Part shown: piece after piece, positions 653 through 62,877 of the stretch | Layout: every line of letters begins with the position of its first letter | How positions within the stretch are numbered: position 1 is the stretch's first letter | NCBI GenBank assembly: GCA_038087875.1 | Contig: CM075993.1 | Location: 8,310,001-8,374,000, forward strand | Direction of reading: 5' to 3' | Source of the DNA: Malacoraja senta | Lineage: Eukaryota | Length of the DNA stretch: 64,000 nt | Notes under the pieces: generated by a model | Database searches by the model: none | Seen by the model: the letters and a program-made list of their open reading frames with translations, nothing else | Told to the model about the DNA's origin: nothing | Program-made: the position numbers and the translations under genes

Positions 653-797
653 TTCTTGAATCTCGACCGTCTTTCTTGTGAAGTGCTCCCACCGCGCTGT
701 TGCGGAGGGAGTTCCTGGACCTAAACCCAGCCACGGTGAAGGAATGATAATGTGCAGTGCAATCTTGACATAAAGCATCTCAATATCAATAGACAAT

Positions 798-988
798 AGA
801 CAATTTGGCCCTTCAAGCCAGCACCGCCATTCAATGTGATCATGGCTGATCATCCCCAATCAGTACCTTGTTCCTGCCTTCTCCCCATATCCCCCTGACT
901 CCGCTATCTTTAGGAGCCCTATCTAGCTCTCTCTTGAAAGTATCCAGAGAACCGGCCTCCACCGCCCTCTGAGGCAGAGAATTCCACA
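798..988 (-). mobile_element. CR1 LINE 3' end fragment
   Basis: Minus-strand LWNSLPQRAVEAGSLDTFKRELD motif plus the CR1 3' UTR also seen at 59031-59300. Confidence 0.85.
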
Positions 989-1612
989 GATGGGATTGTG
1001 GTTGTGGTTTTGGGTTCACCTTGTCTAGTTTCATATCCCGCTGAGTGCGATATCATTGGGTGCTACAAGAGCACTTCATATTCACCCCACCTCTGGAACT
1101 GAGCTCTTTGCACCATATTTGGACCAAGACTGTGATGAGATCTGAAGCGGTGTGAACCTGATGCAGAGCTCACTTGAGCCACAATCAGCAGGTATCATTG
1201 TTGATGATTGGGCTGTCATTACTATATAGGATCAATCCTGCATTTCCCAAAAAGGAAATGTTTTCCTGAGCCTTCCCGGGCAGTCTAGGACTACATTCCT
1301 AGCCGATAACTAGCTCCTTCGTCTTGCTAACATTGAGGGAAAAGGGACTGTGTGATGAGACGGAGATCAAGGGAGATGGAATGCCGCTGACTGAGGGGAT
1401 AGAAACATAGAAAATAGGTGCAGGAGTAGGCCATTCGGCCCTTCGTGCCTGTACTGCCATTCAATATGATCATGGCTGATCATCCATGGCTGATGGTGCA
1501 GGCTTGTTAATCATAACTAATCTAGTTGAAGGAGATGGAAATGGAAAGGATCTAATTAAACACGGGAGAGGATTAAAAAGGAAAATGGAGAAAACATGCT
1601 GGAATTGTCAGT

Positions 1613-1998
1613 GGCCTCTATTCCTTGGAGTGCAGGAGGATGAGGGGTGATCCCATAGAGGTGTATAAGATCATGAGACAAATAAATCAGGTGGATGCAC
1701 AGTCCCTTTTCCAGGGTAGGGGATTGAGAACCAGAGGGCATAGATTTAAGGTGAGGGGGGAAAGATCTAATAGGAACCTGAGGGATAACCTTTTCACGCA
1801 AAGGGTGGTTGGTATATGGAATGAGCTGCCGGAGGAGGTAGTTGAGGCAGGGACTATTGCAACGTTTAAGAAACAGACAGACAGGTACATGGATAGGACA
1901 GGTTTAGAGGTATATGGGCCAAATGCAGGCTAGTGGGACTGGTGTAGATGGGACATGTTGGCCGAAAGGCCTATTTCCTTGCTGTAAGATTCTATGAC
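1613..1998 (+). mobile_element. CR1 LINE 3' end fragment
   Basis: ORF 1625-1933 RRMRGD.IEVYKIMR..RTRGH..FTQRVVGIWNELPEEVVEA matches the CR1 ORF2 C-terminus. Confidence 0.9.
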
Positions 1999-2079
1999 TA
2001 ACGATGTATCTGGATATTGTTAAGGAGTGTCATTATTTTTAGATTAGTTTAATGTTGTTTAGTTTAGTTTACTTTATTA

Positions 2080-2385
2080 GCACGAGAACCAGGGGCCACA
2101 GTCTTAGAATAAAGGGGAGGCCATTTAAGACTGAGGTGAGAAAAAACGTTTTCACCCAGAGAGTTGTGAATTTGTGGAATTCCCTGCCACAGAGGGCAGT
2201 GGAGGCCAAATCACTGGATGGATTTAAGGGAGAGTTAGATAGAGCTCTAGGGGCTAGTGGAATCAAGGGATATGAGGAGAAGGCAGGCACGGGTTATTGA
2301 TAGGGGACGATCAGCCATGATCACAATGAATGGCGGTGCTGGCTCGAAGGGCCGAATGGCCTCCTCCTGCACCTATTTTCTATGA
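2080..2385 (+). mobile_element. CR1 LINE 3' end fragment (second subfamily)
   Basis: RTRGHSLRIKG..FTQRVVNLWNSLPQRAVEA plus 3' UTR ending CCTATTTTCTATG. Confidence 0.9.
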
Positions 2386-2722
2386 CACGTATACCGAGGT
2401 ACAATGAAAGACTTTTGTTGCATGCTATCCAGTCAGCGGAAAGACTATGCATGATTACAATCAAGCTGCCCACAGTGTACAGATACAGGATAAAGGGAAT
2501 ATTGTTTAGTGTAAGATAAAGGCCTGGAAAGTCCAATTAAAGATAGTCTGAGGGCTTTGAAAGATACATTATTGTTGTAAATGAGCACAATGGAGTCTGA
2601 AGGGTCTCGACCCGAAACGTCGCCTATTTCCTTCGCTCCATAGATGCTGCCTCACCCGCTGAGTTTCTCCAGCATTTTTTCCTACCTACAATAACACATC
2701 TGATGTGCAACCAGTAACTCAC

Positions 2723-2880
2723 AAAAGGTTCTCGATTTTGAGCTCCATCCTTCATGTATAAAGTCAACAGTCTTGATCCTTCGTACAGGGCAAACCTCCA
2801 GACACAAATTTCACTTGTGTTATAGTTGCACAAAGGGAAAAATGAGAATCACCGATGAGGAAAAGTGATTTATAAAAGAC
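2723..2880 (-). other. Candidate spliced exon of an unidentified minus-strand transcript (duplicate at 48690-48847)
   Basis: Non-repeat island bounded by acceptor TGTTTCACTTTCTGCAG| and donor TTT|GTGAGT; all three frames have stops; ATGs near the 3' end. Confidence 0.35.
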
Positions 2881-2999
2881 CTGCAGAAAGTGAAACATAT
2901 TTATTGAAGGTACCCAAGCAGATTGTGAGATTGGAACCACAAAATCTCATGTTTTGCTTGGGTAGCTTAAAACCCAATGGTATGAACATTTGCATAGAA

Positions 3000-3220
3000 A
3001 CAAGGAACTGCAGATGCAGATTGACAAAAAAAAGAGACAGTGCTGGAGTAACTCAGTGGGTCAGGCAGCATCCCTGGAGAACATGGATAGATGATATTTT
3101 GGGTCCGAACCCTTCTATCGAGTCTGAAGATGCGTCTCGACCTGAAACATCGCCTCGCCATGTTCTCCAGAGATGCTGCCTGACCCACTGAGTTACTCCA
3201 GCACTCTGTGTCTGTTTTTG
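3000..3220. mobile_element. Head-to-head inverted pair of PLE terminal modules
   Basis: AGTGCTGGAGTAACTCAGTGGGTCAGGCAGCATC.. and its reverse complement flank a degenerate CTGAAGA..GAAAC core. Confidence 0.8.
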
Positions 3221-3523
3221 TATGAATATTGAGTCTTGTAATTGCAAGTAACCCACTCTCCCTGTGTTCTCCCTCACATTCCCTCATCCTTCCAGCTTCT
3301 CAGTTTGTACACCTCTCCCATCACTACCCCCCCCCCCACCACCTCCCCACACACCTGGCTCCATCTGCCCAGCATCCCCTCCCCATCTTGTTCCTCCTAT
3401 CACCCATTTGCCTCTAACTCCCTCTTTCCTCTCCTCTCCTGTAATCTGGTCATCGTTCTTCTTTCCTCGCAGACCTGATGGAGGGTCTCAGCCTGAAACT
3501 TTGACTTACATCTTCTGCCTCCA

Positions 3524-4720
3524 CAGATGCGATCTCGCTGGCCCTCCACTCCGCTCTTGTCCACTTGGACAACAAAAACTCATATGTCCGGCTGTTATTC
3601 ATCGATTACAGCTCGGCATTTAATACAATCATCCCCTCCAAGCTGGTTACCAAGTTCGCAGAACTGGGTCTCTGCGCATCCCTCTGCAATTGGATCCTCG
3701 ACTTCCTCACTCACAGACCACAGTCTGTTCGTATTGGTGGAAATGTGTCAGACTCGATAACCTCAAGGCTGCGTGCTCAGCCCCCTGCTGTACTCACTCT
3801 ATACTCATGACTGCGTAGCCGGACATAGTGCGAACTCCATCATCAAGTTCGCTGACGACACCACTGTTGTGGGACGTATCACTGATGGGGATGAGTCAGA
3901 GTATAGAAGAGAGATCGAGCAACTGTCCATATGGTGCCAGCACAATAACCTGGCCCACAACACCAGCAAAACCAAGGAACTGATTGTGGACTTTGGAAGG
4001 AGTAGGATGGGGACCCACAGTCCTGTTTATATCAACGGGTCGATGGTTGAAAGGGTCAAGAGCTTCAAATTCCTGGGCGTGCACATCTCTGAAGATCTTT
4101 CCTGGTCCGAGAACACTGATGCCATTATTAAGAAAGCACATCAGCGCATCTACTTCCTGAGAAGATTACGGAGAGTCGGTTTGTCAAGGAGGACTCTCTC
4201 TAACTTCTACAGGTGCACAGTAGAGAGCATGCTGACCAGTTGCATCATGGCTTGGTTCGGCAACTTGAGCGCCCTGGAGAGGAAAAGACTACAAAAAGTA
4301 GTAAACACTGCCCAGTCCATCATCAGCTCTGACCTCCCTTCCATCGAGGGGATCTATCGCAGTCACTGCCTCAAAAAGGCTGGCAGTATCATCAAGGACC
4401 CACGCCATCCTGGCCACACACTCATCTCCCTACTACCTTCAGGTAGAAGGTACAGGAGCCTGAAGACTGCAACGACCAGGTTCAGCAATAGCTACTTCCC
4501 CACAGCCATCAGGCTATTAAACTTGGCTCGGACATAACACTGAACTTTATTAGCCAATACTGTTATTTGCACTTTATCAGTATATTGATTCATGTGTGCA
4601 TATATTTATAGAATGCCTTGTAGTCAATGCCTACTATGTTCTGTTGTGCTGAAGCAAAGCAAGAATTTCATTGTCCTATCAGGGACACATGACAATAAAC
4701 TCACTTGAACTTGAACTTGA
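3524..4720 (+). mobile_element. Rex1/Babar-type LINE, 5'-truncated, RT-coding remnant
   Basis: [16 protein letters not shown] (3565 ORF) and [23 protein letters not shown] (ORF 3773-4537); a deletion/frameshift disrupts the GxPQG motif; (CTTGAA)n tail. Confidence 0.93.
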
Positions 4721-5399
4721 CCCACTGAGTTCTTTCAGCCTTCTGTATTTTTGCTTGATTCAATAAGATCTTCCAAGCAGAAGCCAGGAAGAACAGTGCA
4801 TCATTTTATGATGGTCTGCAGAAGGGTCTCGACCCAAAATGACGCCCATGCCTTCTCGCCAGAGATGCTGCTTGTCCCGCTGAGTTACTCCAGCATTTTG
4901 TGTCTATCATCACTTTGTGAGCTCTCCTCCCTGAGTTGGGAATAGAAAAGTACACTGGGGTATCTCAGAAATTTCATAATTGTGATCGATTTCAAGAAAG
5001 GGACACATTTCATTGTAGTCATTCCAAGGGATCTCCATACTGTCTGGCACAAGGTGAGTGGTTGCAAAATTGTCCAATGTACAAAGAACTCTGTCCATCA
5101 GTACATTCCACTAGATTCAGGAACAGCGTCTACCAGACTACTGAACAGACTTCTCATCAACAAAGGGTGTCTTCCCAATCTCACAATCTACCTTGTACAG
5201 CCCTTAAATATCTGTTTATCTGCAGCTGTAACACTATATTCTGTACTCTGCTATTTTTCTCTTTGCACCGCCTGTTGTCCTTCTTTATGGCCTGGTTGTA
5301 CTCATGTCAGGTATGATTTGACTGGATAGCATTCAAAACAATATAATACTGCAAAAAAAAAGCAAAGTTGGATAGCATCTTTTAATTTGGATAGCAACT

Positions 5400-6790
5400 C
5401 AATTTATAAATTTGCAGACGACTCCACTGTAGTGGGCCGGATGTTAAATAATGATGGGACGGAGTACAGGAATGAGATTGAGAACCTCGGAACCTGATGT
5501 CAAGAGCATGACCTTTCCCTCAATATCAGCAAAACAATGTTTAGTTTGGGGGCAACACGGTGGTGCAGCAGTAGAATTGATGCCTTACAGACCCGGGTTC
5601 AATCCTGACTACGGGTGCTGTCTGTACAGAGTTTGTACGTTCTCCCGGTGACCAGGTGGGTTTTTCCCGGGTGCGTTTACTCAAACACTCCAAAGACGTA
5701 CATGTTTGTAGGTTAATTGGCTTCGGTAAAGATTGTACATTATCCCTAGTGTGTAGCATAGTGCTAGTCAACGGGGATCACTGGTCAGCACGGACTCGGT
5801 GGGCCAAAGGGCCTGTTTCCACACTATATCTCTAAATTTAACTAAACTAAACAAAGGAGATAATGATCGACTTCGGGAAGCGAAGCGGTACGCATACCCC
5901 AGTATATATTGAAGGCGCTGAAGAACAGTGAAAAGCTTTTGTTGCGCGCTCTCCAGTCAGCAGAAAGACAATACATAATTACAATCGAGCCATTTACAGT
6001 GTATAGATACATGATAATGGAATAACATTTAGTGCAAGGTGGTACAAGTGTGAGATGGTGAAAGGTCCAAGTTCGTAGGAGTAAATATCTTCAGCAACTA
6101 GTCATGGACCACCCATATCAAAGCAATGGTCAAGAAAACACATCAATGCCTTTACTTCATTAGAAGGCCTAGGAAGTTTGGCATGTTCCCAACAACTCTC
6201 ACCAACATCTACAGACATGCCATAGAAAGCATTTTATCGGGAAGCATCACAGCATGGTTTGGGAACAGCTCCATCCAAGACCGCAAGAAATTGCAGAGAA
6301 TTGTGGACGCAGTCAAGACCATCACGCAAACCAAGTCCCCTCCATCTACACTTCAGGCTGCCTCGGCAAGGCCACCAGCATAATCAAGGACGAGTCTCAC
6401 CCCAGACATTCCCTCTTCTCCCCTCTCCCTCCAGGGAGGAGGTACAGAAGTGTGAAAACTTGTACCTCCAGATTCAGGGACAGTTTCTTCCCAGCTGTTA
6501 TTGGGAACTGAACCATCCTATCACCAACTAGAGAGTGGTCCTGAGCTACCATCTATCTCATTGGAGACCCTCAGACTTTCTCTAATCAGACTTCACTGGA
6601 CTTTATCTTGCACTAAACATTATTCCCTTTATCCTGTATAAGTACACTGTGGATGGCTTGATTGTAGTCATGCATAATCTTGCTGCTGACTGGCAGCACA
6701 TATCAAAAAAAGCTGTTAACACGTGACGATAAACTAACCAAAAAATAAAACAATGTTTTTCGCTTTATCTCGGTACATGTGACAATAATA
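5400..6790 (+). mobile_element. Older degraded Rex1/Babar LINE interrupted by a SINE and an inverted Rex1 3' UTR piece
   Basis: KFADDSTVVG at ~5409; KKTHQCLYFIRR..SITAWFGN; LPPGRRYRS..SFFPAVI; many frameshifts. Confidence 0.8.
5548..5852 (+). mobile_element. HE1-like tRNA-derived V-SINE
   Basis: A-box-like TGGTGCAGCAGTAG, B-box-like GGTTCAATCC, central TTTGTACGTTCTCCC domain, CR1-like tail GGGCC.AAGGGCCTGTTTCC..(CTAAA)n. Confidence 0.88.
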
Positions 6791-6964
6791 AAATCATACT
6801 GATACATTCCACAGTTGCCATCCATCACAGCACAAGAAATCCAAGCTCAACCACTGTATTGGCCAGTTTTCATCTCGTAACAGCCTGCTGTCAATGAGAT
6901 GGATTATGGAAGATTCTTCTCAAATCTGATTCTCCTCAGAGATATGTCACTATTCTCCAACTTA

Positions 6965-7370
6965 CGTAGCAGTAGAGCTGCTGCCTTACAGCGCCAGAGA
7001 CACGAGGTCGATTCTAATTACGGGTGTTGTCTTTACAGACATTGTACGTTCTCCCCGTGACCTGCTCCGGTCACCTCGCACGGACAGGTTTGTAGGTTAA
7101 TTGGCCTTGATAAAATTGTAAATTGTCCCTAGTGTGTGTAGGATAGTGTAAGTGTGCGGGGATCGTTATTCAGCCAGGACTCGGTGGGCCGAAGAGCCTG
7201 TTCTTGCACTGTATCTCTAAAACTATGCTAAACTAAAAAAAACTAAACACCAAACACATACAGGTTTGTGAGTTAGCGTGTAGGATAGTGTCAGTGTCTG
7301 GACTGGTCAGCGAGGACTTGGTGGGCTGAAGGGCCTGTTTCTGCACTGTATCTCTACAGTCTAAAGTAAA
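6965..7370 (+). mobile_element. HE1-like SINE plus a second 3' half
   Basis: Same head, core and tail motifs as 5548-5852. Confidence 0.8.
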
Positions 7371-7379
7371 CTGCTCCAT

Positions 7380-8030
7380 GATGCTATGCAAGCTGTAATC
7401 TTCACCAATAGATCCATCACACTCTCAACCATCAACTAGACAGTGTCGTCACACCAGCCCTCTTCTCAATCTTCCCAACTATGACATTCCAATCAGTACC
7501 CTGTGGATGTGGAATTCATCTACAGGATGAGCAGAAAACATTTTGATCTTCATTATCTCCACTCCAGAACCAAAATCACATCAACCTGATTAAAGTACAT
7601 TACATTGATGAAGACATAAGGAACTGCAGATGCTGGAATGTTCGGTAAAACACAGTTCTACAATACCTCAGCAGTTCAGGCAGTATCTGTGGAAGGTGTA
7701 GATAGGCAACACATTACATTACATGGATGATGCTTTTGTATCTGCACACTTGGAAGCTGGGATCCAAACCACTGTCTCTTCCTTATTGGAGTATGTAGGA
7801 TGATGTGTCTTAAGCTAAACATCTGGAAGACACTTACCTTCACCGCACCGTGACCTGGCCTTCAAAGCTCATGGGAAGAGCCTGGTCATGTTGCACATCC
7901 TAGGAGCCACATCTCATACATGCACAAGGTTCACCACCCTCTAGTGTCCCAGCACAATCTTTAGCCCCCTGAAGAAGATCAAGAATCAATTGGGGCATTC
8001 AATTTATGGTCTGCCAGGCAATAGTGATAC
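7380..8030 (+). mobile_element. Highly degraded RTE-clade LINE RT remnant
   Basis: Residual PALFSIF and VEFIYR..FDLHYLHSRTK translations resemble RTE RT; interrupted by a PLE module. Confidence 0.5.
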
Positions 8031-8034
8031 CCCA

Positions 8035-8610
8035 CAGATAGACACAAAAATTGGAGTAACTCAGTGGGTCAGGCAGCATATATGGGGAAAAAAGGAATAG
8101 GTGAAATTTTGGGTCGAGACCCTTCTTCAATGAAATAAGACATATGAAAAGGGACAGAGAACAAATGAATGAAAGATATGCAAAAGGACAAATAAAAGGC
8201 AGCAACGATGGTCAGGGAAAGATGGTCCATTGTTGGCAGTGGGGAACGTGATAATGAGTGATACAAACAGTGAAACTCGGCAGGACGACAGTGAAACTAG
8301 CGCGACTACTAGGGTGGGGAAGGGACGGAGAGAGAGGGGATGTAAGGGTTACTTGAAGTTAGTGAAATCAACATTAATACCACTGGTACACAAAAATGCT
8401 GGAGAAACTCAGCGGGTGCAGCAGCATCTATGGAGCGAAGGAAACAGGTAACGTTTCGGGCCGAAACCCTTCTTCAGACTGATAGGGGGTGGGGAGAAGA
8501 AAGGAAAAAAGGAAAAAAAGGAAACATTAATACCACTGGGTTGTAAGCTGCCGAAGCGAAATATGAGGTACTGTTCCGCCAATTTGCGTTCTGCCAGTGG
8601 AGGAAGCCCC
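8035..8610 (-). mobile_element. PLE 3' end containing a nested younger hammerhead module (8387-8522, 17-bp TSD)
   Basis: AACATTAATACCACTGG at 8370-8386 and 8523-8539; flanks resemble the PLE endonuclease C-terminus and UTR at 29330-29850. Confidence 0.85.
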
Positions 8611-9089
8611 AGCCTCTGATATGTGTTAGAGATAAAGATAACCTACAGCAGAACCTCAAAACCCTGCTGGAGTTACCCCTGGGATCCTGCAGGTTAAATG
8701 GACCATTGTCAGGATCCTCTCTGAACCCTGATCCCACTTCACCAGCTGCAGTGGGTGGACTGCATTGTTTAAATATTTGACACTGGATTCCTCAGATCTC
8801 AATGATGGGAGGAGATTTTCAGGAGGCAGAGGAAGTGCTTGTGGTGTCTCCTGGACTCCTGTACACCTCAGAGATGCAGACTACCTACAGCAAACAAAAC
8901 ACAAAGTGCTGGAATAACTCAGTGGGTCGTGCTGCATCTGTGGAGAACATGCAATAGGTGACGTTTTGGTCGGGACCCTTCTTCAGACTGACTGTAGTAG
9001 TGGAGGGGAGCAAGCTGGAGGAGAAGGGGCGGGACAAAGCCTGGCAAATGATAGCTTGTTCTGGGTGAGGTGGGAGCTTTTGCTTAGTA

Positions 9090-9275
9090 TTTCAACATGC
9101 TGAAATTTTTTTCTGCAACCTAGCTGAGGCCACGAGTATTCGGGAACTTCCCTCGAGCATGAAGGAGAGTTCCAGTGACCTCATAGGACCACATGTCGAC
9201 CATGCTGCGAGTTTGAGTCGAGGGCAAACTCTTTTAAACTCGTAGATTAGGTCGCTGCAATGGGACAGCCCCTTC
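9090..9275. mobile_element. Probable non-autonomous DNA transposon end (PIF/Harbinger-like); related terminus at 24616-24740
   Basis: Terminal TGGGACAGCCCC here and GCCCTGTCCCAC at ~24617 look like one TIR type; the superfamily call is tentative. Confidence 0.4.
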
Positions 9276-9282
9276 ATAGTCT

Positions 9283-9545
9283 GTGTAGGAAAGAACTGCA
9301 GATGCTGGTTTAAATCGAAGGTCCCTGTAGATACAAAATGCTGGAGTAACTCAGCGGGACAGGCAGCATCTCTGGAGAGAAGGAATGGGTGACGTTTCGG
9401 GTCGAGACCCTTCTTCAGACTCTTCTTCAAGGGAGTTGGCGGGACAGAGATGGAATGTAGTCGGAGACAGTAAGACTGGTGGGAGAACTGTGAAGGGGGA
9501 GGGGATGGAGAGAGCGGGAAAGCAAGGGTTACTTGAAGTTAGAGG
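9283..9545 (-). mobile_element. PLE 3' terminal region with intact hammerhead core (continues to ~55750 in the duplicate copy)
   Basis: Minus strand reads GTCTGAAGAAGGGTCTCGACCCGAAACGTCACCC; the duplicate continues into KLEEQHLIFSLGSLHPRGMNI. Confidence 0.88.
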
Positions 9546-9745
9546 NNNNNNNNNNNNNNNNNNNNNNNNNNNNNNNNNNNNNNNNNNNNNNNNNNNNNNN
9601 NNNNNNNNNNNNNNNNNNNNNNNNNNNNNNNNNNNNNNNNNNNNNNNNNNNNNNNNNNNNNNNNNNNNNNNNNNNNNNNNNNNNNNNNNNNNNNNNNNNN
9701 NNNNNNNNNNNNNNNNNNNNNNNNNNNNNNNNNNNNNNNNNNNNN
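9546..9745. other. Assembly gap (exactly 200 N)
   Basis: Run of N. Confidence 1.
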
Positions 9746-22400: not shown

Positions 22401-24176
22401 AGCGTCATGTGAATCTTACCATATGTCTCATTATCCGCTTGGTATTCCCAGTTTATTTGACGTCAAAATGGCATCAATGTAATTGAATGAATCAATACCA
22501 CATGCTTCTGCTACCTCCCTCAGGAACTTGTACCACAGACTGAAACCCAGTCCCTGCTGATGCGTTTTGAATCTGCTTCCCTTGAGCGTGGGTCGTATCC
22601 TTTAGTTCTGTTGGGTGGAGCAGACACATCTGTCGGCAAATAAAGAAGATAGACACAAAGTGCTGGAGTCGCTCAGCGGGCCAGGTGGCATCTCTGGGGA
22701 AAAAACAATGGGTGTCGTTCAGGGTCAGGAACCTTCGTCAGATTGGAAATAGAGGAGAGGAAACTGGGGGTACAAATAGACCAGAGCAAAGCAGGACCGG
22801 CAACAGATGACCAAGGAAAGGTGGAGCCCATTATGGTCCATTGTTGGCTGGGGAAGAGGTGATAATGAAGGAAGACAAGAATGCGAACAATGGAACTAGT
22901 AGGGCAATTAGGGTGGGGGAGGGGGAAGAGAGAGGAGGGGGCAGGGGGGGTGAGAAATGCGGAAGTTACCTGAAATTAGAGAAACGGTTGCCCAGTCTAA
23001 GTGGGCCATTGTCAGGTTGGGCCAGAAGACCACAGGTTCAAATTGTTGTCGAGTTCTTTCGTCCCTTGATTCTAGGGACCCTTTCCTCGGGCTGAGAGTC
23101 AGAAGAAAGGGAAGCAAGAGATGTAGATGGTGATTGTGAGAGATACAGAACAAATGAATGAAAAATATGCAAAAAGGAACGATGATAACGGAAACGGTCT
23201 GTTGTTGGCTGTGGGTTAGGTGATAACAAGTTGTACAGACTATATCTCTCTATATCACCATCTATATCTCTCGTTTCCCTTTCCCCTGTCTCTCAGTCCG
23301 AGGAAGGGTTCTCGACCCGAAACGTCACCCATTCCTGTTCTCCAGAGATGCTGCCTGACCCACTGAGTTACTCCAGCGTTTTGTGTCTATCTTTGGTTTA
23401 AACCAGCATCTGCAGTTCTTTCCTACACACCTTGTTATATCAATGTCAGTTTACATACAGTCTCATACACACACACACTATCCATCCGCACAGAAACACC
23501 TACTGTCACTTCTCTGCACAATTCCCCACATCCCTGACACTCCCACGCAACACACTGCCCCTCCCCACACACACACACACACACGCTTAGAAATTTTCAT
23601 TATGCTTTGGAACATTTCTTGACAGATGAAACAACTTATTTTCAGGCTTCTGGAGCTAACACTCCACAGTGCGATCATTAAAATGATTCTTCCTGACTTT
23701 CTCTAGCAGTGCACCTGGGGTATTCCCCGTAATTGCAAAGCTTGCCGTGAGGACTCAGTGTAAAATTTTCCAGGTGGGAAGCTGAGTATTGCAACACTCC
23801 TTCATCAGGAGGAAGTGTATTAATATTTGAAAGCTTACAATACTGCTCCACTCTTCTCTCACTTGCCCATTAATCTATCCACCTTCTTGGTCTGTCACTC
23901 CAATGACGCATTGCACCCAACACCAAAGCAAATTAGTGGTGAAAAAGGATTATTAAACATTACTGCCTTACAACGCCAGAGACCCGGGTGCAATCCTGAC
24001 CAAGTGTGCTTGTCTGTAAGGAGTTTGTACGTTCTCCCCGTGGCCTGCGTGGGTTTTCTCCGGGAGCGGTTTCCTCCCACACTCCAAAGACGTACAAGTT
24101 TGTATGCTTATTGGCTTGGTATAATTGTAAATTGTTCCTTGTGTGTGTAGGATAGTGTTATTGTGCAGGGATCGCT

Positions 24177-24310
24177 TCTTCTTTCGTGTGGCGTGCACAG
24201 CCTAAAGTTGTTGGACAACTTGTTCTATTTGATCTTCCGTTTGTGCACGTCGAGTTGATTGCATTAGTCGAAACAGGGCGGACCACGTGAAGGTTGCAAT
24301 CTTCCACCCC
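24177..24310 (-). mobile_element. Short non-autonomous retroelement (family 1): HDV-like ribozyme head, hairpin body, (GAA)n tail
   Basis: 11-bp TSD CAGGGATCGCT (24166-24176, 24311-24321); homologous copies at 43362-43497 and 62756-62877. Confidence 0.9.
24257..24310 (-). ncRNA. Minimal HDV-like (CPEB3-type) self-cleaving ribozyme, predicted intact
   Basis: P1 GGGGUGG/CCGCCCU (G1.U wobble), J1/2 AA, P2 GAUUGCA/UGCAAUC, P3 ACC/GGU, L3 UUCACGU, GU, 5-nt linker replacing P4, J4/2 CUAA. Confidence 0.85.
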
Positions 24311-27169
24311 CAGGGATCGCTGGTCGGCACGGACAAGGTGGGCCTAAGGGCCTGTTTCCGCATTGTATCTCTAAACTAAACTAAAATACTAAGTGCTGGA
24401 GTAACTCAGTGGGTCAGGCAGCATCTGTGGAGGGAATGGATATGCGATATTTTGGGTGGGGCCCTTCCTCACACTCCGCAATCTGAAGACATGACCCAAT
24501 GCGATTCATTCCCTCCATTGATGCTGCCTGACCCGTTGAGTTACTCCAGCATTTTGTGTTTTGCTCAAGATTCCAGCATCTGCATTCCTTGTGCCTCCAT
24601 TATTAAAGACTAATAGCCCTGTCCCACGGTGCGAGTTCATTCAAGTGCTCTCCCGAGTTTTTAAAAAATCAAACTCGTGGTAAGCACGGAGAATGAACGT
24701 AGCGGGTACGTCGGAGCTTGGGGACGTCTCTTAACGGCTCATAAAATTGTAAATGTGCTTAAAAAATAAACAATAAATGACTAATTCTTAATTTTCAAGG
24801 ATGGTCCCCAAATAAAACCATTCTTCATTAAACACTGGCTCAGAGACAGAGAAAAACACACAAAGTGCTAGAAGAACTCAGCGGGTCAGGCAGCATCTGT
24901 GGAGGGAATGGACAGGCAACTTTTCGGGTTGGGACTGAATGTGGTGGGGGAGAAAGCTGGAAAAGAGACCTGGGAGGGGGGACAAAGCCTGGCAAGTGAT
25001 ATGGGGAAGATAGACACAAAACGTAGGAGTAACTCAGCGGGTCAGGCAGCATCTCTGGAGAAAAGGAATAGGTGACATTTCGGGTCGAGAACCTTCTTCA
25101 GACTGAAGTTGAGTTCAACTGCTGAATGTGCCTATCTAAAAGTCCCTTAAATGCCACTCTCGTATCGGCCACCTGCTCTTTATTTCTGTCACAGCCTTTC
25201 GGAAGGCTTCACCCAGCTAATTAATAAGACTGCTCAAATCATCCACTTCCCTCCCAGAAAGCCAGCAAGGCACTAACCCACCCAACCTCCAGGGGTAAGT
25301 AATTGTCAAAGCTGTTACCGAGACTGAATGCTTGTGAATGTCTTAGACATTTACAAACATTCCTATCTACTTAGACACATGAAAAAGTAATTAAAAATAT
25401 TTTAAAACTACACTGAGCAACCGCCCTCACATTCTTAACAGTTCATTTAAAGTTTAGTTTAGAGATACAGCATGGAAACAGGCCCACCGAGTCCACAGCG
25501 AGCAACGATCACCCACCCGTTCACTAGTTCTATCCGACAAAATGTATTGAAATCAATTAACCTACAAGCCTGTAAGTCTTTTGAATTTTGAGGAAACCGG
25601 AGCACCCGGAGAAAACCCAGTTACAGGAATTATATACAAACTCCATACAGACAGCACCTGTAGTCAGGGGCGAACTGGCTGTAAGGTAGCAAATCTACTG
25701 CTGCACCACCGTGCTGCCCTTAAAGTAATTGAACAATGTAACAAATGGAAGCAGGAGTCAACTATTTGGTCCCAATACTTGCCCTGCCTTTCAATAACAT
25801 CTTTATCTAATCTAATACCTCAGCACTACCTTCCGGCAATTGCTCCCTTAATACCCAAACGTCCATCGATCTCTGCTTTGACTGCCAGAAGAGGTAGTTG
25901 AGGCAGGTACTATTGCAATGTTTAAGAAACATTTAGACAGGATAGGACAGGGTTAAAGGGATATTGGCCAAACGCTGGTAGGTGAGACTAGTGTATCTGG
26001 GACATGCTGGTCGGTGTGGGCAAGTTGGGCTGAAGGGCTGTTTCCACCATGTATGACTCTATGACTGAGTATTCCTTACCCTCTTGGGTAAAGAATTTCT
26101 TTAAATCCATCATCTTCTGAGTAGAAATTCAGTCTCTCATCTTTAAATTTGAGGGGTAATTGTTTCACACAAATGGTGGTGGGTGTAAGCTGCCAGAGGA
26201 GGTAGTTGAGGCTGGGACTATCCCAACGTTGAAGAAACAGTTAGCCAGGTACATGGATAGAACAGGTTTGGAGGGATTTGGACCAAACACAGGCTGGTGG
26301 GACTAGTGTAGCTGGAACATTGGCCGGTGTGGGCAAGTTGGGCTGAAGGGCCTGTTTCCATGCTGTGTCACTCTATAATTCTAAGAGATCATAGACCCAG
26401 CCTTCTTAATCTCTCTGCATTGAACAATCCTCTCCATCCCAAAGAATCACACCAATAAGCGCCTGTTACTTTTAATTCCAGTTATGACGCGAACTGTTCA
26501 GGATATTGCAGAAGCAGTCACACCACCTTCCTGTACCACTGCTGCAAGATATATCTTTACCCTTTTATTTTGGTCTTCATAGACAATGGAATATACGTTA
26601 GTTTAGAGATCTAGCTTGGAAACACACACAGATCCCACACCGACCAGGTGTACATCGATACCTGTACACTAGTTGTATCCTACACACAAGGGACTATTTA
26701 CCAAAGCCAATTAACCTACAAACCTGTATCAGTACATGGGGAAAACCCATGCAGTCACAGGGAGAACGTACAAACTCCTTACAGACAGCACCCATAGTCA
26801 GGATTGAACCTGTGTCTCTGGCGCTGTAAGGCAGCAACACTAAGGCTGCGCCACCGTGCCAGACTCATATCCAGGCTCATGGCTGGCTCATATCCAGATG
26901 TGCTGGCCAACATCCCACTTACCTGGCCCTCATACGGAAGGACATTATCTTGCAGACAGACAGTACCTGTAGTCAGGATCAAGATCGAGAGAGAATGAGG
27001 AGCTGAAACAAATAAAAATCTGCCAACAAATTTAGAAATTAGTGGGATCAAAATGGGTTTGTTATCTTGGGAGGCAATGTGGAGCAGGTGGTAGAGCTGC
27101 TACCTCGCAGCAACAGAGACTCAGGATGGATACTGACCTCGGGTGCTGTGCGTGGAATTTGCACATTCT

Positions 27170-43070: not shown

Positions 43071-43361
43071 ACAAAACCAGGATCTCTAAACAAAGTCTTG
43101 CTCCCTAAATTACTGCAAATAACACTTTCCCACTGATAGACATGCCACAGAGGGTAGTTGAGGCCAGTTCATTGGCTATATTTAAGAGGGAGTTAGATGT
43201 GGCCCTTGTGGCTAAGGGGATCAGGGGGTATGGAGAGAAGGCAGGTACGGGATACTGAGTTGGATGATCAGCCATGATCATATTGAATGGCGGTGCAGGC
43301 TCGAAGGGCCGAATGGCCTACTCCTGCACCTATTTTCTATGTATCTATGTATGTTCAAAAT

Positions 43362-43497
43362 GGGGTGGGAGATTGCAACCTTCACGTGGTCCACCCTGTT
43401 TCAATGAATGCAATCAACCTGGCGTGCACATTGAGAAGATCAAACAGAAGAGGTTGTCTTACAACTTTAGGCTGTGCACGCTATACGCAAGAAGAAG
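43362..43497 (+). mobile_element. Ribozyme-headed short element, family 1, full length; catalytic C replaced by T
   Basis: 11-bp TSD ATGTTCAAAAT (43351-43361, 43498-43508); HDV-like fold 43362-43415 with J4/2 TGAA. Confidence 0.9.
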
Positions 43498-43839
43498 ATG
43501 TTCAAAATCTTCACTTTTGTAACAGATAAAAAGAACCGAAGTTTAACAGAAGCTGGTCCTGAATCTGGTGATGCATGCTTTCTAGATTCTGTACCTTTTG
43601 CCCAACAGGAGCAAGGGGAAGAAGGAATGACCAGGATGTGACAAATCTTTCATTATGTTGCATTGCAAACATATTAAAACAACGTGACTATTTGGAACGT
43701 CCTGACATAAATGCTCCTTTTTTTGCAATTTTTCCTCTCTTTGCACTTTCTGGGACTTTGCTTTTTCCTTTCCTCCTCATTCATCTTTTATTCCGCCTCC
43801 TTCCTATCGCGTCCGTTTAACCCCACAGTTAATAATCTA

Positions 43840-45959: not shown

Positions 45960-48900
45960 ATCTGTGAAGATCTTTCCTGGTCCGAGAACACTAATGCAAT
46001 TATCAAGAAAGCTCATCAGCGCCTCTACTTCCTGAGAAGATTACGGAGAGTCGGTTTGTCAAGGAGGACTCTCTCTAACTTCTACAGGTGCACAGTAGAG
46101 AGCATGCTGACTGGTTGCATCGTGGCTTGGTTCGGCAACTTGAGCGCCCTGGAGAGATAAAGACTACAAAAAGTAGTAAACACTGCCCAGTCCATCATCG
46201 GCTCTGACCTCCCTTCCATCGAGGGGATCTATCGCAGTCGCTGCCTCAAAAAGGCTGGCAGTATCATCAAGGACCCACACCATCCTGGCCACACACTCAT
46301 CTCCCTGCTACCTTCAGGTAGAAGGTACAGGAGCCTGAAGACTGCAACGACCAGGTTCAGGAACAGCTACTTCCCCACAGCCATCAGGCTATTAAACCTG
46401 GCTCGGACAAAACTCTGATTATTAATAACCCATTATCTGTTATCTGCACTTTATCAGTTTATTTATTCATGTGTGTATATATTTATATTATGGTATATGG
46501 ACACATTGATCTGTTTTGTAGTAAATGCCTACTATGTTCTGTGTGCTGAAGCAAAGCAAGAATTTCATTGTCCTATCAGGGACACATGACAATAAACTCA
46601 CTTGACTTGACTTCTTGAATCTCGACCGTCTTTCTTGTGAAGTGCTCCCACCGCGCTGTTGCAGAGGGAGTTCCTGGACCTAAACCCAGCCACGGTGAAG
46701 GAATGATAATGTGCAGTGCAATCTTGACATAAAGCATCTCAATATCAATAGACAATAGACAATTTGGCCCTTCAAGCCAGCACCGCCATTCAATGTGATC
46801 ATGGCTGATCATCCCCAATCAGTACCTTGTTCCTGCCTTCTCCCCATATCCCCCTGACTCCGCTATCTTTAGGAGCCCTATCTAGCTCTCTCTTGAAAGT
46901 ATCCAGAGAACCGGCCTCCACCGCCCTCTGAGGCAGAGAATTCCACAGATGGGATTGTGGTTGTGGTTTTGGGTTCACCTTGTCTAGTTTCATATCCCGC
47001 TGAGTGCGATATCATTGGGTGCTACAAGAGCACTTCATATTCACCCCACCTCTGGAACTGAGCTCTTTGCACCATATTTGGACCAAGACTGTGATGAGAT
47101 CTGAAGCGGTGTGAACCTGATGCAGAGCTCACTTGAGCCACAATCAGCAGGTATCATTGTTGATGATTGGGCTGTCATTACTATATAGGATCAATCCTGC
47201 ATTTCCCAAAAAGGAAATGTTTTCCTGAGCCTTCCCGGGCAGTCTAGGACTACATTCCTAGCCGATAACTAGCTCCTTCGTCTTGCTAACATTGAGGGAA
47301 AAGGGACTGTGTGATGAGACGGAGATCAAGGGAGATGGAATGCCGCTGACTGAGGGGATAGAAACATAGAAACATAGAAAATAGGTGCAGGAGTAGGCCA
47401 TTCGGCCCTTCGTGCCTGTACTGCCATTCAATATGATCATGGCTGATCATCCATGGCTGATGGTGCAGGCTTGTTAATCATAACTAATCTAGTTGAAGGA
47501 GATGGAAATGGAAAGGATCTAATTAAACACGGGAGAGGATTAAAAAGGAAAATGGAGAAAACATGCTGGAATTGTCAGTGGCCTCTATTCCTTGGAGTGC
47601 AGGAGGATGAGGGGTGATCCCATAGAGGTGTATAAGATCATGAGACAAATAAATCAGGTGGATGCACAGTCCCTTTTCCAGGGTAGGGGATTGAGAACCA
47701 GAGGGCATAGATTTAAGGTGAGGGGGGAAAGATCTAATAGGAACCTGAGGGATAACCTTTTCACGCAAAGGGTGGTTGGTATATGGAATGAGCTGCCGGA
47801 GGAGGTAGTTGAGGCAGGGACTATTGCAACGTTTAAGAAACAGACAGACAGGTACATGGATAGGACAGGTTTAGAGGTATATGGGCCAAATGCAGGCTAG
47901 TGGGACTGGTGTAGATGGGACATGTTGGCCGAAAGGCCTATTTCCTTGCTGTAAGATTCTATGACTAACGATGTATCTGGATATTGTTAAGGAGTGTCAT
48001 TATTTTTAGATTAGTTTAATGTTGTTTAGTTTAGTTTACTTTATTAGCACGAGAACCAGGGGCCACAGTCTTAGAATAAAGGGGAGGCCATTTAAGACTG
48101 AGGTGAGAAAAAACGTTTTCACCCAGAGAGTTGTGAATTTGTGGAATTCCCTGCCACAGAGGGCAGTGGAGGCCAAATCACTGGATGGATTTAAGGGAGA
48201 GTTAGATAGAGCTCTAGGGGCTAGTGGAATCAAGGGATATGAGGAGAAGGCAGGCACGGGTTATTGATAGGGGACGATCAGCCATGATCACAATGAATGG
48301 CGGTGCTGGCTCGAAGGGCCGAATGGCCTCCTCCTGCACCTATTTTCTATGACACGTATACCGAGGTACAATGAAAGACTTTTGTTGCATGCTATCCAGT
48401 CAGCGGAAAGACTATGCATGATTACAATCAAGCTGCCCACAGTGTACAGATACAGGATAAAGGGAATATTGTTTAGTGTAAGATAAAGGCCTGGAAAGTC
48501 CAATTAAAGATAGTCTGAGGGCTTTGAAAGATACATTATTGTTGTAAATGAGCACAATGGAGTCTGAAGGGTCTCGACCCGAAACGTCGCCTATTTCCTT
48601 CGCTCCATAGATGCTGCCTCACCCGCTGAGTTTCTCCAGCATTTTTTCCTACCTACAATAACACATCTGATGTGCAACCAGTAACTCACAAAAGGTTCTC
48701 GATTTTGAGCTCCATCCTTCATGTATAAAGTCAACAGTCTTGATCCTTCGTACAGGGCAAACCTCCAGACACAAATTTCACTTGTGTTATAGTTGCACAA
48801 AGGGAAAAATGAGAATCACCGATGAGGAAAAGTGATTTATAAAAGACCTGCAGAAAGTGAAACATATTTATGTTTTTTTATTGAAGGTACCCAAGCAGAT

Positions 48901-62697: not shown

Positions 62698-62755
62698 ATG
62701 ATCTCGATCCTAAATGTCACTATCTATGTTCTCCAGGGATGCTGCCTGACCTGCT

Positions 62756-62877
62756 TCTTCTTCTTCTTCTTCTTGCATATGGCGTGCACAGCCTAAAGTT
62801 GTACGACAACTTGTTCTATTTGATCGCATTTGATTGTGCACACCGGGTTGATTGCATTTGTCGAAACGTCCCACCCC
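62756..62877 (-). mobile_element. Ribozyme-headed short element, family 1, with an internal deletion in the ribozyme
   Basis: 7-bp TSD ACCTGCT (62749-62755, 62878-62884); GGGGTGGGAC joined directly to GTTTCGACAAATGCAATC; long (GAA)n tail. Confidence 0.85.

What the first reader, a model, noticed from the sequence alone, without database searches (positions are those of the whole stretch)
24177..24310. A ~135-nt SINE-like retroelement whose head is a minimal HDV-like ribozyme rather than a tRNA
Seen (minus strand): GGGGUGG-AA-GAUUGCA-ACC-UUCACGU-GGU-CCGCCCU-GU-UUCGA-CUAA-UGCAAUC gives the full nested double pseudoknot in 54 nt: 7-bp P1 with G1.U, 7-bp P2, 3-bp P3, 7-nt L3, catalytic-position C in J4/2, and no real P4. 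G1, the predicted cleavage product end, is the first base inside an 11-bp TSD, and all three family copies start at the same GGGGTGG. No Pol III A/B boxes are evident. Established: HDV-like ribozymes process the 5' ends of R2, RTE and L1Tc/ingi elements, and short internally deleted derivatives exist in insects and trypanosomatids. Inference: a promoter-less vertebrate element that excises its 5' end from read-through host transcripts and is copied by a (GAA)n-tailed LINE (Vingi/Ingi or RTE are candidates). I am not aware of this being described in cartilaginous fish, but could not search.
Basis: partly seen in the sequence, partly recalled or inferred. Interest (0 to 1): 0.92.

Follow-up and report, generated by a model that had tools for sequence, protein, structure and literature searches.

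The report
Ribozyme-headed short retroposon, young and abundant
This is one copy of a very young, high-copy short mobile element whose first 54 bases fold like a stripped-down hepatitis-delta-type self-cutting RNA, which most likely cuts the element's own 5' end out of longer transcripts before a related long element copies it into new sites.

Summary
Window 24310..24177 (minus strand) is a 134-nt element with a (GAA)n tail and an 11-bp target-site duplication (TSD) that abuts G1.

- **Copy number:** all 40 genome matches that were scored, out of 1410 first-look candidates, are 100% identical to it. An older subfamily has 2005 candidates.
- **The fold:** the first 54 nt fit an HDV-like double pseudoknot with no real P4. 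My descriptor hit the window only here, and hit 7.4 Mb of random sequence twice.
- **Related LINEs:** three related compact single-ORF LINE families with APE and RT domains lie in the same genome. Families A and B have a (GAA)n tail. All three carry the same fold at the 5' end of their homology, with different helix sequences.
- **Covariation:** across 13 sequences, 97.9% of pair cells are paired against 41.5-49.2% for slid controls, and 13 of 18 pairs change on both sides.
- **RNA ends:** raw RNA reads from four runs join a template-switch oligo exactly to G1.
- **Against:** no Rfam match reaches its gathering score.

Catalysis, the mobilising LINE and the LINE clade ("Vingi-like" by architecture only) are inferred. 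The principle is known; this is a new vertebrate variant with a minimal ribozyme.

The parts
24177..24310 (-). One full copy of the 134-nt retroposon (young subfamily), ending in AAAGAAGA of the (GAA)n tail
   Evidence: It is identical over 134 nt to all 40 scored genome matches.
24257..24310 (-). 54-nt head: a candidate P4-less HDV-like ribozyme, with the predicted cut between 24311 and 24310
   Evidence: Descriptor hit. RF02682 aligns end to end at 16 bits, E 1.1. Covariation with the LINE ribozymes. Template-switch junctions at G1.
24304..24310 (-). P1 5' strand; pairs with 24275-24281; G1.U at the cleavage site
   Evidence: helix 1 has 98.9% of cells paired, and 5 of 7 pairs change on both sides.
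24295..24301 (-). P2 5' strand; pairs with 24257-24263 (the pseudoknot)
   Evidence: helix 2 has 96.7% of cells paired, and 6 of 7 pairs change on both sides.
24282..24294 (-). P3 (24292-24294 with 24282-24284) enclosing the 7-nt L3. The L3 C at 24289 pairs with the G at 24274 (P1.1).
   Evidence: helix 3 is 100% paired. The P1.1 pair is CG in 8, UA in 4 and other in 1 of the 13 rows.
24264..24267 (-). J4/2, reading CUAA; the C at 24267 sits at the catalytic position
   Evidence: The older subfamily reads CGAA in 15, CAAA in 3 and TGAA in 2 of 20 copies.
24268..24272 (-). 5-nt linker where the related LINE ribozymes have a P4 region of 18 to 44 nt
   Evidence: Alignment A1.
24195..24249 (-). 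Predicted body structure: an outer 8-bp stem enclosing a 7-bp hairpin. Both stems are kept in the older subfamily. This is a prediction only.
   Evidence: z -1.42; 20 of 200 shuffles fold as well. Sequences.
24311..24321 (-). Upstream copy of the 11-bp TSD
24166..24176 (-). Downstream copy of the 11-bp TSD
43362..43497 (+). Older-subfamily copy, 85% identical. The catalytic-position C reads T at a CpG. TSD copies lie at 43351-43361 and 43498-43508.
62755..62877 (-). Copy with the ribozyme core deleted (positions of about 10-36) that still starts at the same G1. TSD GCAGGT.

Best explanation
The feature is a copy of a non-autonomous non-LTR retroposon of 134 nt plus a (GAA)n tail. Its first 54 nt are a minimal, P4-less HDV-like self-cleaving ribozyme.

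Proposed cycle:
1. A genomic copy is transcribed as part of a longer RNA.
2. The head folds into the nested double pseudoknot and cuts just 5' of G1. This gives the element an exact 5' end without needing a promoter of its own.
3. The reverse transcriptase of a compact, single-ORF, (GAA)n-tailed APE-type LINE primes on the tail at a nicked target and copies the RNA to its 5' end.
4. The result is a full-length insertion flanked by a 9-14-bp TSD.

Related LINE families in the same genome carry full-size versions of the same ribozyme fold at their 5' ends, so head and partner use the same trick.

Shown:
- Element anatomy, copy number and TSDs.
- Fold conservation with compensatory changes across four element families.
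- LINE anatomy and tails.
- RNA 5' ends at G1.

Inferred:
- Catalysis.
- Read-through transcription as the source of the RNA.
- Which LINE family does the copying.
For: **1. Youth and spread.**
- All 40 scored matches are 100% identical over 134 nt, out of 1410 candidates.
- 28 of the 30 fetched loci have flanks of their own. The other two are the window (L005) and its duplicate (L006).
- 22 of 30 have an exact TSD abutting G1.
- In the older subfamily, 17 of 20 fetched copies start with the full GGGGTGGG.

**2. The fold is unlikely by chance.** The descriptor gives 1 hit in the window and 2 in 7.4 Mb of random sequence.

**3. The same fold on related LINEs.**
- LINE-A is about 3.1 kb, with at least 1283 3'-end candidates.
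- LINE-B and LINE-C are 47-55% identical to it in the endonuclease.
- Each starts with the same module lengths, 7-2-7-3-7-3-7-2-[P4]-4-7. LINE-C's own 5' end is not defined.

**4. Covariation.**
- 97.9% of 234 cells are paired, against 41.5-49.2% when the partners are slid.
- 13 of 18 pairs have changes on both sides.
- The covariation score is 0.682, against a shuffled mean of 0.268 (0 of 500 shuffles reach it).
- The P1.1 pair switches from C-G to U-A.

**5. Sequence link to a LINE.** Head positions 14-39 are 85% identical to the LINE-B ribozyme core.

**6. HDV covariance model.**
- RF02682 aligns end to end to LINE-C at 33.1 bits, E 9.4e-4.
- It aligns to LINE-A at 19.3 bits and to the head at 16 bits.

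**7. Catalytic-position C.**
- It is kept in 18 of 20 older copies although it lies in a CpG.
- In the young subfamily it is kept while the CpG is lost.

**8. RNA 5' ends at G1.**
- Reads carry a template-switch-oligo sequence joined to G1: 87, 111, 505 and 351 reads in X23, X24, X21 and X22.
- Mixed read-through ends at the same boundary number 426, 276, 163 and 188.
- Seven G in a row (3 from the oligo plus 4 from the element) argues against oligo strand invasion.
- Single-cell reads lie about 4-10 times more often on the element's sense strand.

**9. LINE 5' ends.** In two TSD-defined LINE-A copies the TSD is followed directly by GGGGAGAC or GAGGAGAC. A third is ambiguous by 2 nt.

**10. 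3' ends agree only at the very end.**
- Element: ACG(A/C)AA(GAA)n.
- LINE-A: ACGACA(GAA)n.
- LINE-B: TCGCAA(GAA)n.

**11. No Pol III signals**.
Against: - **No curated match.** No Rfam family reaches its gathering score in the window. RF02682 scores 16 bits against 44. The HDV and CPEB3 models give nothing at E<=10. Over the whole genome the best RF02682 score is 36.7 bits, and only 62 of 82112 candidates were scored.
- **Folding energy.** Nested folding energies do not stand out from shuffles (z -0.04 for the head, -0.21 to -1.28 for the LINE ribozymes). Pseudoknots are not modelled there.
- **Within the SINE family.** There is no two-sided compensatory change, only U.G against U-A in P1. The covariation rests on four related lineages, so independent events are few. 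A1 holds 13 rows that I chose from more copies.
- **The RNA data.** They cannot tell cleavage from initiation at G1. Read-through across the 5' boundary is plentiful in the bulk runs, so cleavage is not complete if it happens at all. Those transcripts could also be antisense.
- **Departures from the usual pattern.** LINE-B reads CAGA or CACA in J4/2, not C-N-A-A. LINE-A has no G after P1'.
- **LINE-A's first base.** The 7-bp P1 used for the LINE-A rows in A1 starts one base upstream of the TSD-defined start, so its first base is uncertain by 1 nt.
- **Body.** The element's body shows no BLAST similarity to the LINE-B 3' region or to the LINE-A regions fetched.
- **Copy at 62877.** It starts at G1 although its ribozyme core is missing. 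That fits a later deletion, but this is not proven.
Confidence: 0.78

Rival explanations
1. The head is mainly an internal promoter (Pol III, or Pol II as in the Pr77 element of trypanosome L1Tc). G1 is then a transcription start, and the ribozyme-like fold is secondary or a second function.
For: - Template-switch junctions at G1 fit an initiated 5' end as well as a cleaved one.
- The single-cell runs show a discrete sense-strand RNA.
- The first 77 nt of L1Tc and NARTc are reported to be both promoter and HDV-like ribozyme (PMC3383444, abstract seen in the listing).
- The element contains no run of four T.
Against: - No A-box or B-box with up to 2 mismatches lies in the element, and it shows no tRNA likeness.
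- What is conserved across the four families is pairing, not sequence. A promoter does not predict that.
- The same fold heads 3.1-kb protein-coding LINEs.
Confidence: 0.12
2. The fold is conserved as a structural signal only, for example as a binding site for the LINE protein or for translation or RNA stability. It no longer cleaves, and the exact 5' end comes from something else.
For: - HDV-like ribozymes of R2 are also described as protein-binding and IRES-like elements (PMC6765202, passages read).
- The first ATG of the long LINE-A frame lies in the P2 3' strand.
- J4/2 departs from the usual pattern in LINE-B.
Against: - The element has no ORF to translate.
- The catalytic-position C is kept in 18 of 20 older copies despite lying in a CpG.
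- G1 is both the insertion end and the RNA end.
Confidence: 0.07
3. The pseudoknot is a chance resemblance in an ordinary short repeat.
For: - Rfam matches are below threshold.
- Folding energies are unremarkable.
Against: - The descriptor finds about 3 in 10 million positions of random sequence, yet here it starts on the element's first base.
- Covariation across four families.
Confidence: 0.03

Closest known systems
R2 SIDEs: short internally deleted R2 and R2/R1 elements of Drosophila (PMC3414825, abstract seen)
   Same: A non-coding element that keeps a 5' HDV-like ribozyme to make its own 5' end from a co-transcript, plus a 3' end used by the LINE protein.
   Different: - SIDEs are plain internal deletions of a site-specific rDNA element.
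- Here insertion is dispersed, and the ribozyme has lost P4.
- The body matches none of the LINE regions that I fetched and compared.
NARTc / L1Tc and the Pr77 hallmark of trypanosomatid ingi-clade elements (PMC3383444, PMC4035085, abstracts seen)
   Same: - Autonomous and non-autonomous partners share a 5' HDV-like ribozyme.
- Copies are dispersed.
- Ingi is reported as the sister clade of Vingi (PMC13708176, passages).
   Different: - The host is a protist.
- The ribozyme is 77 nt and doubles as a promoter.
- NARTc is a truncated L1Tc.
- Here the host has vertebrate-type repeats, the ribozyme is 54 nt, and no promoter function has been tested.
Minimal (P4-less) HDV-like ribozymes, including phage theta ribozymes (PMC10879173, passages read)
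   Same: The double pseudoknot without a P4 domain, and a catalytic C in J4/2.
   Different: That paper reports nearly 99% of minimal examples in Caudoviricetes phages, where they act in tRNA processing. This one heads a eukaryotic retroposon with thousands of copies.
Bipartite non-autonomous LINEs of the Vingi and RTE clades (PMC5786205, section 23 read)
   Same: Short non-coding derivatives that keep a LINE's extreme 5' and 3' ends and are thought to depend on the parent LINE.
   Different: [quoted passage not shown]
- Here the head is only related to a LINE ribozyme (85% over 26 nt).
- Only the last few bases plus the tail match at the 3' end.
Mammalian CPEB3 ribozyme (resemblance recalled, not tested by any search)
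   Same: As I recall it, it has the same 7-nt L3, the same GU after P1, and the CGAA J4/2 seen in the older subfamily.
   Different: - It is a single-copy intronic ribozyme with a P4.
- The Rfam CPEB3 model gave no match at E<=10.
Schistosome SINE-like elements with hammerhead ribozymes (PMC6765202, passages read)
   Same: A short retroposon that carries a self-cleaving ribozyme.
   Different: - A different ribozyme class.
- Pol III transcription.
- Processing of tandem multimers.

Membership tests
HDV-like (delta-like) self-cleaving ribozymes | Nested double pseudoknot: P1, P2, P3 and P1.1 in the canonical order | tested here: met
   -.
- 97.9% of cells are paired, and 13 of 18 pairs have changes on both sides across the element and three LINE families.
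HDV-like (delta-like) self-cleaving ribozymes | The cleavage site lies directly 5' of G1 at the base of P1, so the ribozyme's first base is the product's first base | tested here: met
   - G1 is the first base inside the TSD in 22 of 30 young copies.
- G1 is the RNA 5' end in four runs.
- That the end is made by cleavage is inferred.
HDV-like (delta-like) self-cleaving ribozymes | A catalytic cytosine in J4/2 | tested here: met
   - C at 24267.
- C is kept in 18 of 20 older copies.
- This is position and conservation only, not chemistry.
HDV-like (delta-like) self-cleaving ribozymes | Divalent-ion-dependent self-scission giving a 5'-OH product | not testable with these tools
   It needs an in vitro cleavage assay and chemical mapping of the 5' end.
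Rfam HDV-type families (RF02682; the HDV and CPEB3 models) | A score at or above the curated gathering score | tested here: not met
   - 0 matches at gathering score in the window.
- Head: 16 bits against 44.
- LINE-C: 33.1 bits.
- Genome best: 36.7 bits.
SINE in the strict sense | A head derived from tRNA, 7SL, 5S or snRNA with an internal Pol III promoter | tested here: not met
   - ARAGORN finds none.
- No A-box or B-box with up to 2 mismatches in 24177-24310.
Bipartite non-autonomous LINE (internal-deletion derivative) | The 5' part and the 3' part are both recognisably those of one autonomous LINE | tested here: inconclusive
   - The head core is 85% identical over 26 nt to LINE-B.
- At the 3' end only the last 5-8 nt plus the tail agree.
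- The body has no BLAST match to the LINE-B 3' region or to the fetched LINE-A regions.
Vingi clade (for the partner LINEs) | Compact single ORF with APE and RT domains and no RNase H (as described in PMC13708176) | tested here: met
   - About 3136 bp.
- Exo_endo_phos and RVT_1 are found.
- No Pfam family in the 219 aa between the RT domain and the zinc knuckle.
- The ORF starts about 80 nt from the 5' end.
Vingi clade (for the partner LINEs) | RT groups with Vingi references in a tree | not tested
   - No labelled reference sequences were available.
- The nearest named proteins are unnamed teleost RT fragments at 63-72% identity.

The most novel reading that the evidence does not exclude
A currently active, promoter-less vertebrate retroposon family lives entirely on read-through transcription plus a 54-nt P4-less HDV-like ribozyme. 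That would be the first minimal delta-type ribozyme with a clear job in a eukaryote. In addition, 5' HDV-like ribozymes would be a general, so far unlisted feature of Vingi-type LINEs. That would include the native 5' UTRs now being carried into Vingi-based gene-insertion tools.
Probability: 0.4. Interest if true: 0.8.

Novelty: new variant of a known kind. Interest (0 to 1): 0.66.

Why it matters
HDV-like ribozymes that trim the 5' ends of non-LTR retrotransposons, and of their short derivatives, are established in insects and trypanosomes.

This case adds a vertebrate-type genome in which the principle is running now. All 40 scored copies are identical, there are thousands of candidates, and RNA ends lie at G1.

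It is also a natural 54-nt P4-less version. The paper I read places such minimal forms almost wholly in phages (PMC10879173).

The fold also sits on compact Vingi-like LINEs. That clade is absent from the 2018 list of ribozyme-bearing clades (PMC5786205). It is now used, with its native 5' UTR, in gene-insertion platforms (PMC13708176).

If the 5' UTR is a ribozyme, that bears on how such RNAs should be designed.

The four covarying versions also make a ready comparative set for structure-function work.

Tried and rejected
**RNA-family and folding searches**
- Rfam at gathering score on the window gave 0 matches.
- RF02682 over the whole genome gave 5 matches, the best at 36.7 bits and none over the cut-off. 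Only 62 of 82112 candidates were scored, and the same search rings in 6 of 14 control bacteria. It says little either way.
- Nested minimum-energy folding gave z-scores of -0.04 to -1.42, which is not informative for a pseudoknot.

**Rejected origins and partners**
- tRNA origin of the head is rejected.
- The RTE-type LINE with a (GAA)5 tail in L014 was set aside as the main partner. Its end, a stop codon followed directly by the tail, does not resemble the element's 3' end. It is not excluded.
- Simple internal deletion of LINE-A is rejected. There is no BLAST similarity between the element and the six LINE-A copies or the two 5'-complete copies that I compared.

**Fetches that missed**
- The LINE 3' ends sought in L092, L123 and L124 were not in the stretches fetched.
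- The 5' regions of L114, L117 and L121 showed no ribozyme. Those copies are probably truncated or were mis-placed by my offset.

- Kojima 2011 (Vingi) and Ruminski 2011 (ribozymes in RTE and others) are not held. What they show for vertebrates or Vingi could reduce the novelty.

**Literature searches on novelty**
- 'Vingi' with 'ribozyme' gave 6 papers. For one I read passages (PMC5786205), and it does not list Vingi among ribozyme-bearing clades. For the other five I saw only passages or the listing, and nothing there makes the link.
- 'HDV-like' with 'cartilaginous' gave 2 papers that look irrelevant by title.
- 'self-cleaving ribozyme', 'retrotransposon' and 'shark' gave R2 papers and others.
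- One search was badly framed and told me nothing.

- Twenty contig-level runs under several coded organism labels (A to H, one metagenome, one unlabelled) hold the element's words. I did not lay them, so they are not evidence of anything.
Full report
**Observation**

Read on the minus strand, window 24310..24177 is a 134-nt unit that ends in AAAGAAGA. It is flanked by AGCGATCCCTG on both sides (24321..24311 and 24176..24166). G1 at 24310 is therefore the first base inside an 11-bp target-site duplication (TSD).

- P1: 24310-24304 with 24281-24275.
- P2: 24301-24295 with 24263-24257.
- P3: 24294-24292 with 24284-24282.
- L3: 7 nt.
- GU follows P1.
- A 5-nt linker stands where P4 would be.
- CUAA comes before the P2 3' strand.

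Two more copies lie in the window:
- 43362-43497 (+) is 85% identical and has its own 11-bp TSD.
- 62877..62755 (-) lacks the ribozyme core but starts at the same bases.

**Is it more than chance?**

I wrote an HDV-type descriptor with these requirements:
- P1 of 7 bp starting with G.
- J1/2 of 0-3 nt.
- P2 of 6-7 bp.
- P3 of 3 bp.
- L3 of 6-8 nt.
- G after P1'.
- 3-60 nt, then C-N-A-A, then P2'.

It hits both strands of the window once, at 24310(-). It hits 7.4 Mb of first-order Markov sequence twice. The descriptor was written after I had seen the hit.

Here the match begins on the first base of a mobile element, which chance does not explain.

**The family**

In the window's own 1.94-Gb assembly, the element found 1410 first-look candidates. 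All 40 that were scored are 100% identical over 134 nt.

Of the 30 loci fetched, one is the window and one is a nearby duplicate of it. The other 28 have flanks of their own. The TSD counts over the 30 loci are:
- 22 have an exact TSD of 9-14 bp abutting G1.
- 4 have a 9-13-bp TSD set 1-2 nt off.
- 1 has eight extra G between the TSD and G1.
- 1 has a 6-nt TSD.
- 2 have none by exact match.

Tails run from (GAA)2 to (GAA)6.

An older subfamily, found with the copy at 43362 as query, has 2005 candidates, and the 40 scored are 93-100% identical to the query. I fetched the first 20 listed. Of these, 17 start with the full GGGGTGGG and 3 lack one or two leading G.

Their J4/2 reads CGAA in 15, CAAA in 3 and TGAA in 2. 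The catalytic-position C is thus kept in 18 of 20 although it sits in a CpG. In the young subfamily the C is kept and the CpG is gone.

P1 position 5 pairs U-A in the old subfamily and U.G in the young one.

**Partner LINEs**

A (GAA)n-tailed LINE fragment beside the element in L030 led to a family that I call LINE-A. It has at least 1283 3'-end candidates. All 30 fetched loci share its 3' end; 28 of them continue into a (GAA)n tail, and 2 read GAAGAATAA or GAAGAAGAC there.

Its frames carry endonuclease and RVT_1 domains and a weak zinc knuckle. No Pfam family is found in the 219 aa between the RT domain and the knuckle, so no RNase H.

Two copies that reach the 5' end lose similarity to each other at the same point. 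The long frame opens about 80 nt later. One copy spans about 3136 bp.

This matches the description of Vingi as compact, single-ORF and lacking RNase H (PMC13708176, passages). It also matches the 3128-bp length listed for one Vingi family (PMC5786205, table 2). I could not place the RT in a tree. The nearest named proteins are unnamed teleost RT fragments at 63-72% identity.

An endonuclease search found further families at 47-55% identity. I call these LINE-B and LINE-C.

**The same fold on the LINEs**

The 5' end of LINE-A was read in 22 rows: 20 fetched out of 40 scored, plus L067 and L068. Three pairs of these rows share flanks.

The 5' regions of LINE-B (L115, L116, L120) and LINE-C (L118, L119) show the same order and lengths of modules. 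Only P4 varies, from 5 nt in the element to 44 nt.

TSDs could be checked in three LINE-A copies. In two, the TSD is followed directly by GGGGAGAC or GAGGAGAC. In the third the start is ambiguous by 2 nt. The 7-bp P1 used for the LINE-A rows in A1 begins one base further upstream. Nine of the 15 distinct flanks have a G there, so LINE-A's first base is uncertain by one nucleotide.

Three LINE-B copies have unrelated flanks up to G1. One carries a 16-nt duplication of its own start. The two LINE-C copies share their upstream flank, so their 5' end is not defined.

MAFFT aligned 13 sequences that I chose: 4 from the element, 3 LINE-B, 1 LINE-C and 5 LINE-A. No hand editing was needed. On that alignment the pseudoknotted structure gives:
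- 97.9% of 234 cells paired, against 41.5-49.2% with the 3' partners slid by 1-3 columns.
- 13 of 18 pairs with changes on both sides.
- A covariation score of 0.682 against a shuffled mean of 0.268 (0 of 500 shuffles reach it).
- A single P1.1 pair that is C-G in 8 rows, U-A in 4 and unpaired in 1.

The rows belong to four related lineages, so independent events are fewer than cells.

Element positions 14-39 are 85% identical to the LINE-B core. That ties the head by descent to a LINE ribozyme.

**Known-family models**

No Rfam family reaches its gathering score. With relaxed thresholds, RF02682 (the HDV ribozyme of F. prausnitzii, gathering score 44 bits) aligns end to end as follows:
- To the head, exactly 24310..24257, at 16 bits and E 1.1.
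- To LINE-C at 33.1 bits and E 9.4e-4.
- To LINE-A at 19.3 bits.

The HDV and CPEB3 models gave nothing at E<=10. Nested energy folding recovers P1 and P3, but the z-scores are unremarkable.

**RNA**

I laid four raw-read RNA runs of one coded organism on 24117-24370. Two are oligo-dT RNA-seq and two are single-cell.

Depth is several hundred-fold over the element and near the flank level outside it. This is expected for a repeat.

At the 5' boundary there are two kinds of loose ends:
- **Mixed flanks at 24310.** These number 426, 276, 163 and 188 reads, with agreement 0.35-0.58. They are read-through from many loci.
- **A uniform sequence at 24311.** This numbers 87, 111, 505 and 351 reads, with agreement 0.64-0.89.

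The uniform sequence, in reverse complement, reads as a SMART-type template-switch oligo ending in GGG. I recognise it from memory and no tool checked it. The junction has seven G in a row: three from the oligo plus the element's four. The cDNA therefore ran to G1 and switched there.

Strand invasion by the oligo would not add the G runs together.

Single-cell reads lie about 4-10 times more often on the element's sense strand. In the same runs, poly(T) loose ends abut 24182-24189. That is either A-tailed RNA or oligo-dT priming on the A-rich tail.

RNA that starts at G1 therefore exists. The data cannot say whether G1 is a cut or a start. The plentiful read-through in the bulk runs shows that cutting is not complete, if it happens.

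**Promoter rival**

ARAGORN finds no tRNA. No A-box or B-box pattern with up to 2 mismatches lies in the element (consensus recalled).

Conservation of pairing rather than sequence argues against a promoter as the main reading. So does the presence of the fold on 3.1-kb coding elements. A dual role, as reported for Pr77 of L1Tc (PMC3383444, abstract), is not excluded.

**Which LINE copies it**

The element shares only its very end with the LINEs:
- Element: ACG(A/C)AA(GAA)n.
- LINE-A: ACGACA(GAA)n.
- LINE-B: TCGCAA(GAA)n, seen in one copy.

Its body has no BLAST match to the LINE-B 3' region or to the fetched LINE-A regions. The body is predicted to form a hairpin inside a longer stem.

An RTE-type LINE with a (GAA)5 tail also exists. 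Its end looks different.

The partner is therefore inferred, with the Vingi-like families favoured.

**Comparison with what is known**

- Bipartite non-coding derivatives of RTE, Ingi, Vingi and R2 are listed there too. Vingi is not among the ribozyme-bearing clades.
- P4-less minimal forms are reported as nearly 99% confined to phages (PMC10879173, passages).
- My searches found no paper that links such a ribozyme to Vingi or to cartilaginous fish.
- The two key older papers are not held. I could not query Repbase or Dfam.

**Verdict**

The thing is a ribozyme-headed non-autonomous retroposon, not a strict SINE. It is a new variant of a known kind. What is new is the minimal ribozyme, the host type, a very recent burst of copies, and a LINE lineage not yet listed as ribozyme-bearing.

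Catalysis remains to be shown at the bench.

Noticed in passing
window 1-9545 and 45960-55529; gap 9546-9745: The two stretches are 99.7% identical, and a 200-N assembly gap follows the first. Element copies at 24310 and 43362 have exact twins about 45.96 kb upstream in the contig (C17:8288215 and C17:8307403). This is either a tandem segmental duplication of about 46 kb or an assembly artefact.
   Followed up: partly
window 24050-24176 and 24311-24450: The element sits inside another interspersed repeat. The interrupted sequence continues across the insertion once one TSD copy is removed. Similar flanking words recur at other loci (for example L012, L024, L029).
   Followed up: no
L014:324-1472 (+): An RTE-type LINE 3' end whose ORF stop codon is followed directly by (GAA)5. 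It lies just upstream of an element copy, so at least two unrelated LINE lineages here use (GAA)n tails.
   Followed up: partly
L118 and L119 (G000:C1936, C4421) and many small contigs listed: LINE-C copies (47% endonuclease identity; many with a 352-aa open frame) sit mostly on small contigs. The two fetched share the same upstream flank. This suggests site-specific insertion or tandem arrays.
   Followed up: no
L070:1-60 and L120:171-215: Two LINE copies carry a partial duplication of their own first 12-16 nt just upstream of the 5' end. One young element copy (L001) has eight extra G there. These look like 5'-junction irregularities of reverse transcription.
   Followed up: no
window 24182-24189 (runs X21, X22): Between 61 and 162 reads per listed site carry long poly(T) loose ends that abut the last bases before the (GAA)n tail. 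This is either A-tailed element RNA or oligo-dT priming on the A-rich tail.
   Followed up: no
window 24277 (run X24): 55 reads show an element variant with extra letters inserted right after the P1 3' strand, where P4 would be. They are seen in one run only.
   Followed up: no
(protein search with L061:705-1667, minus strand): The LINE-A RT is 63-72% identical to unnamed proteins of several teleosts (a moray cod, an Antarctic plunderfish, a cutthroat eel). The family is either widely conserved in fishes or has moved between lineages.
   Followed up: no
Contigs of 20 runs from 12 studies, filed under several coded organism labels (A to H, one metagenome, one unlabelled), hold 90-100% of the sampled words of the young element.
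   Followed up: no
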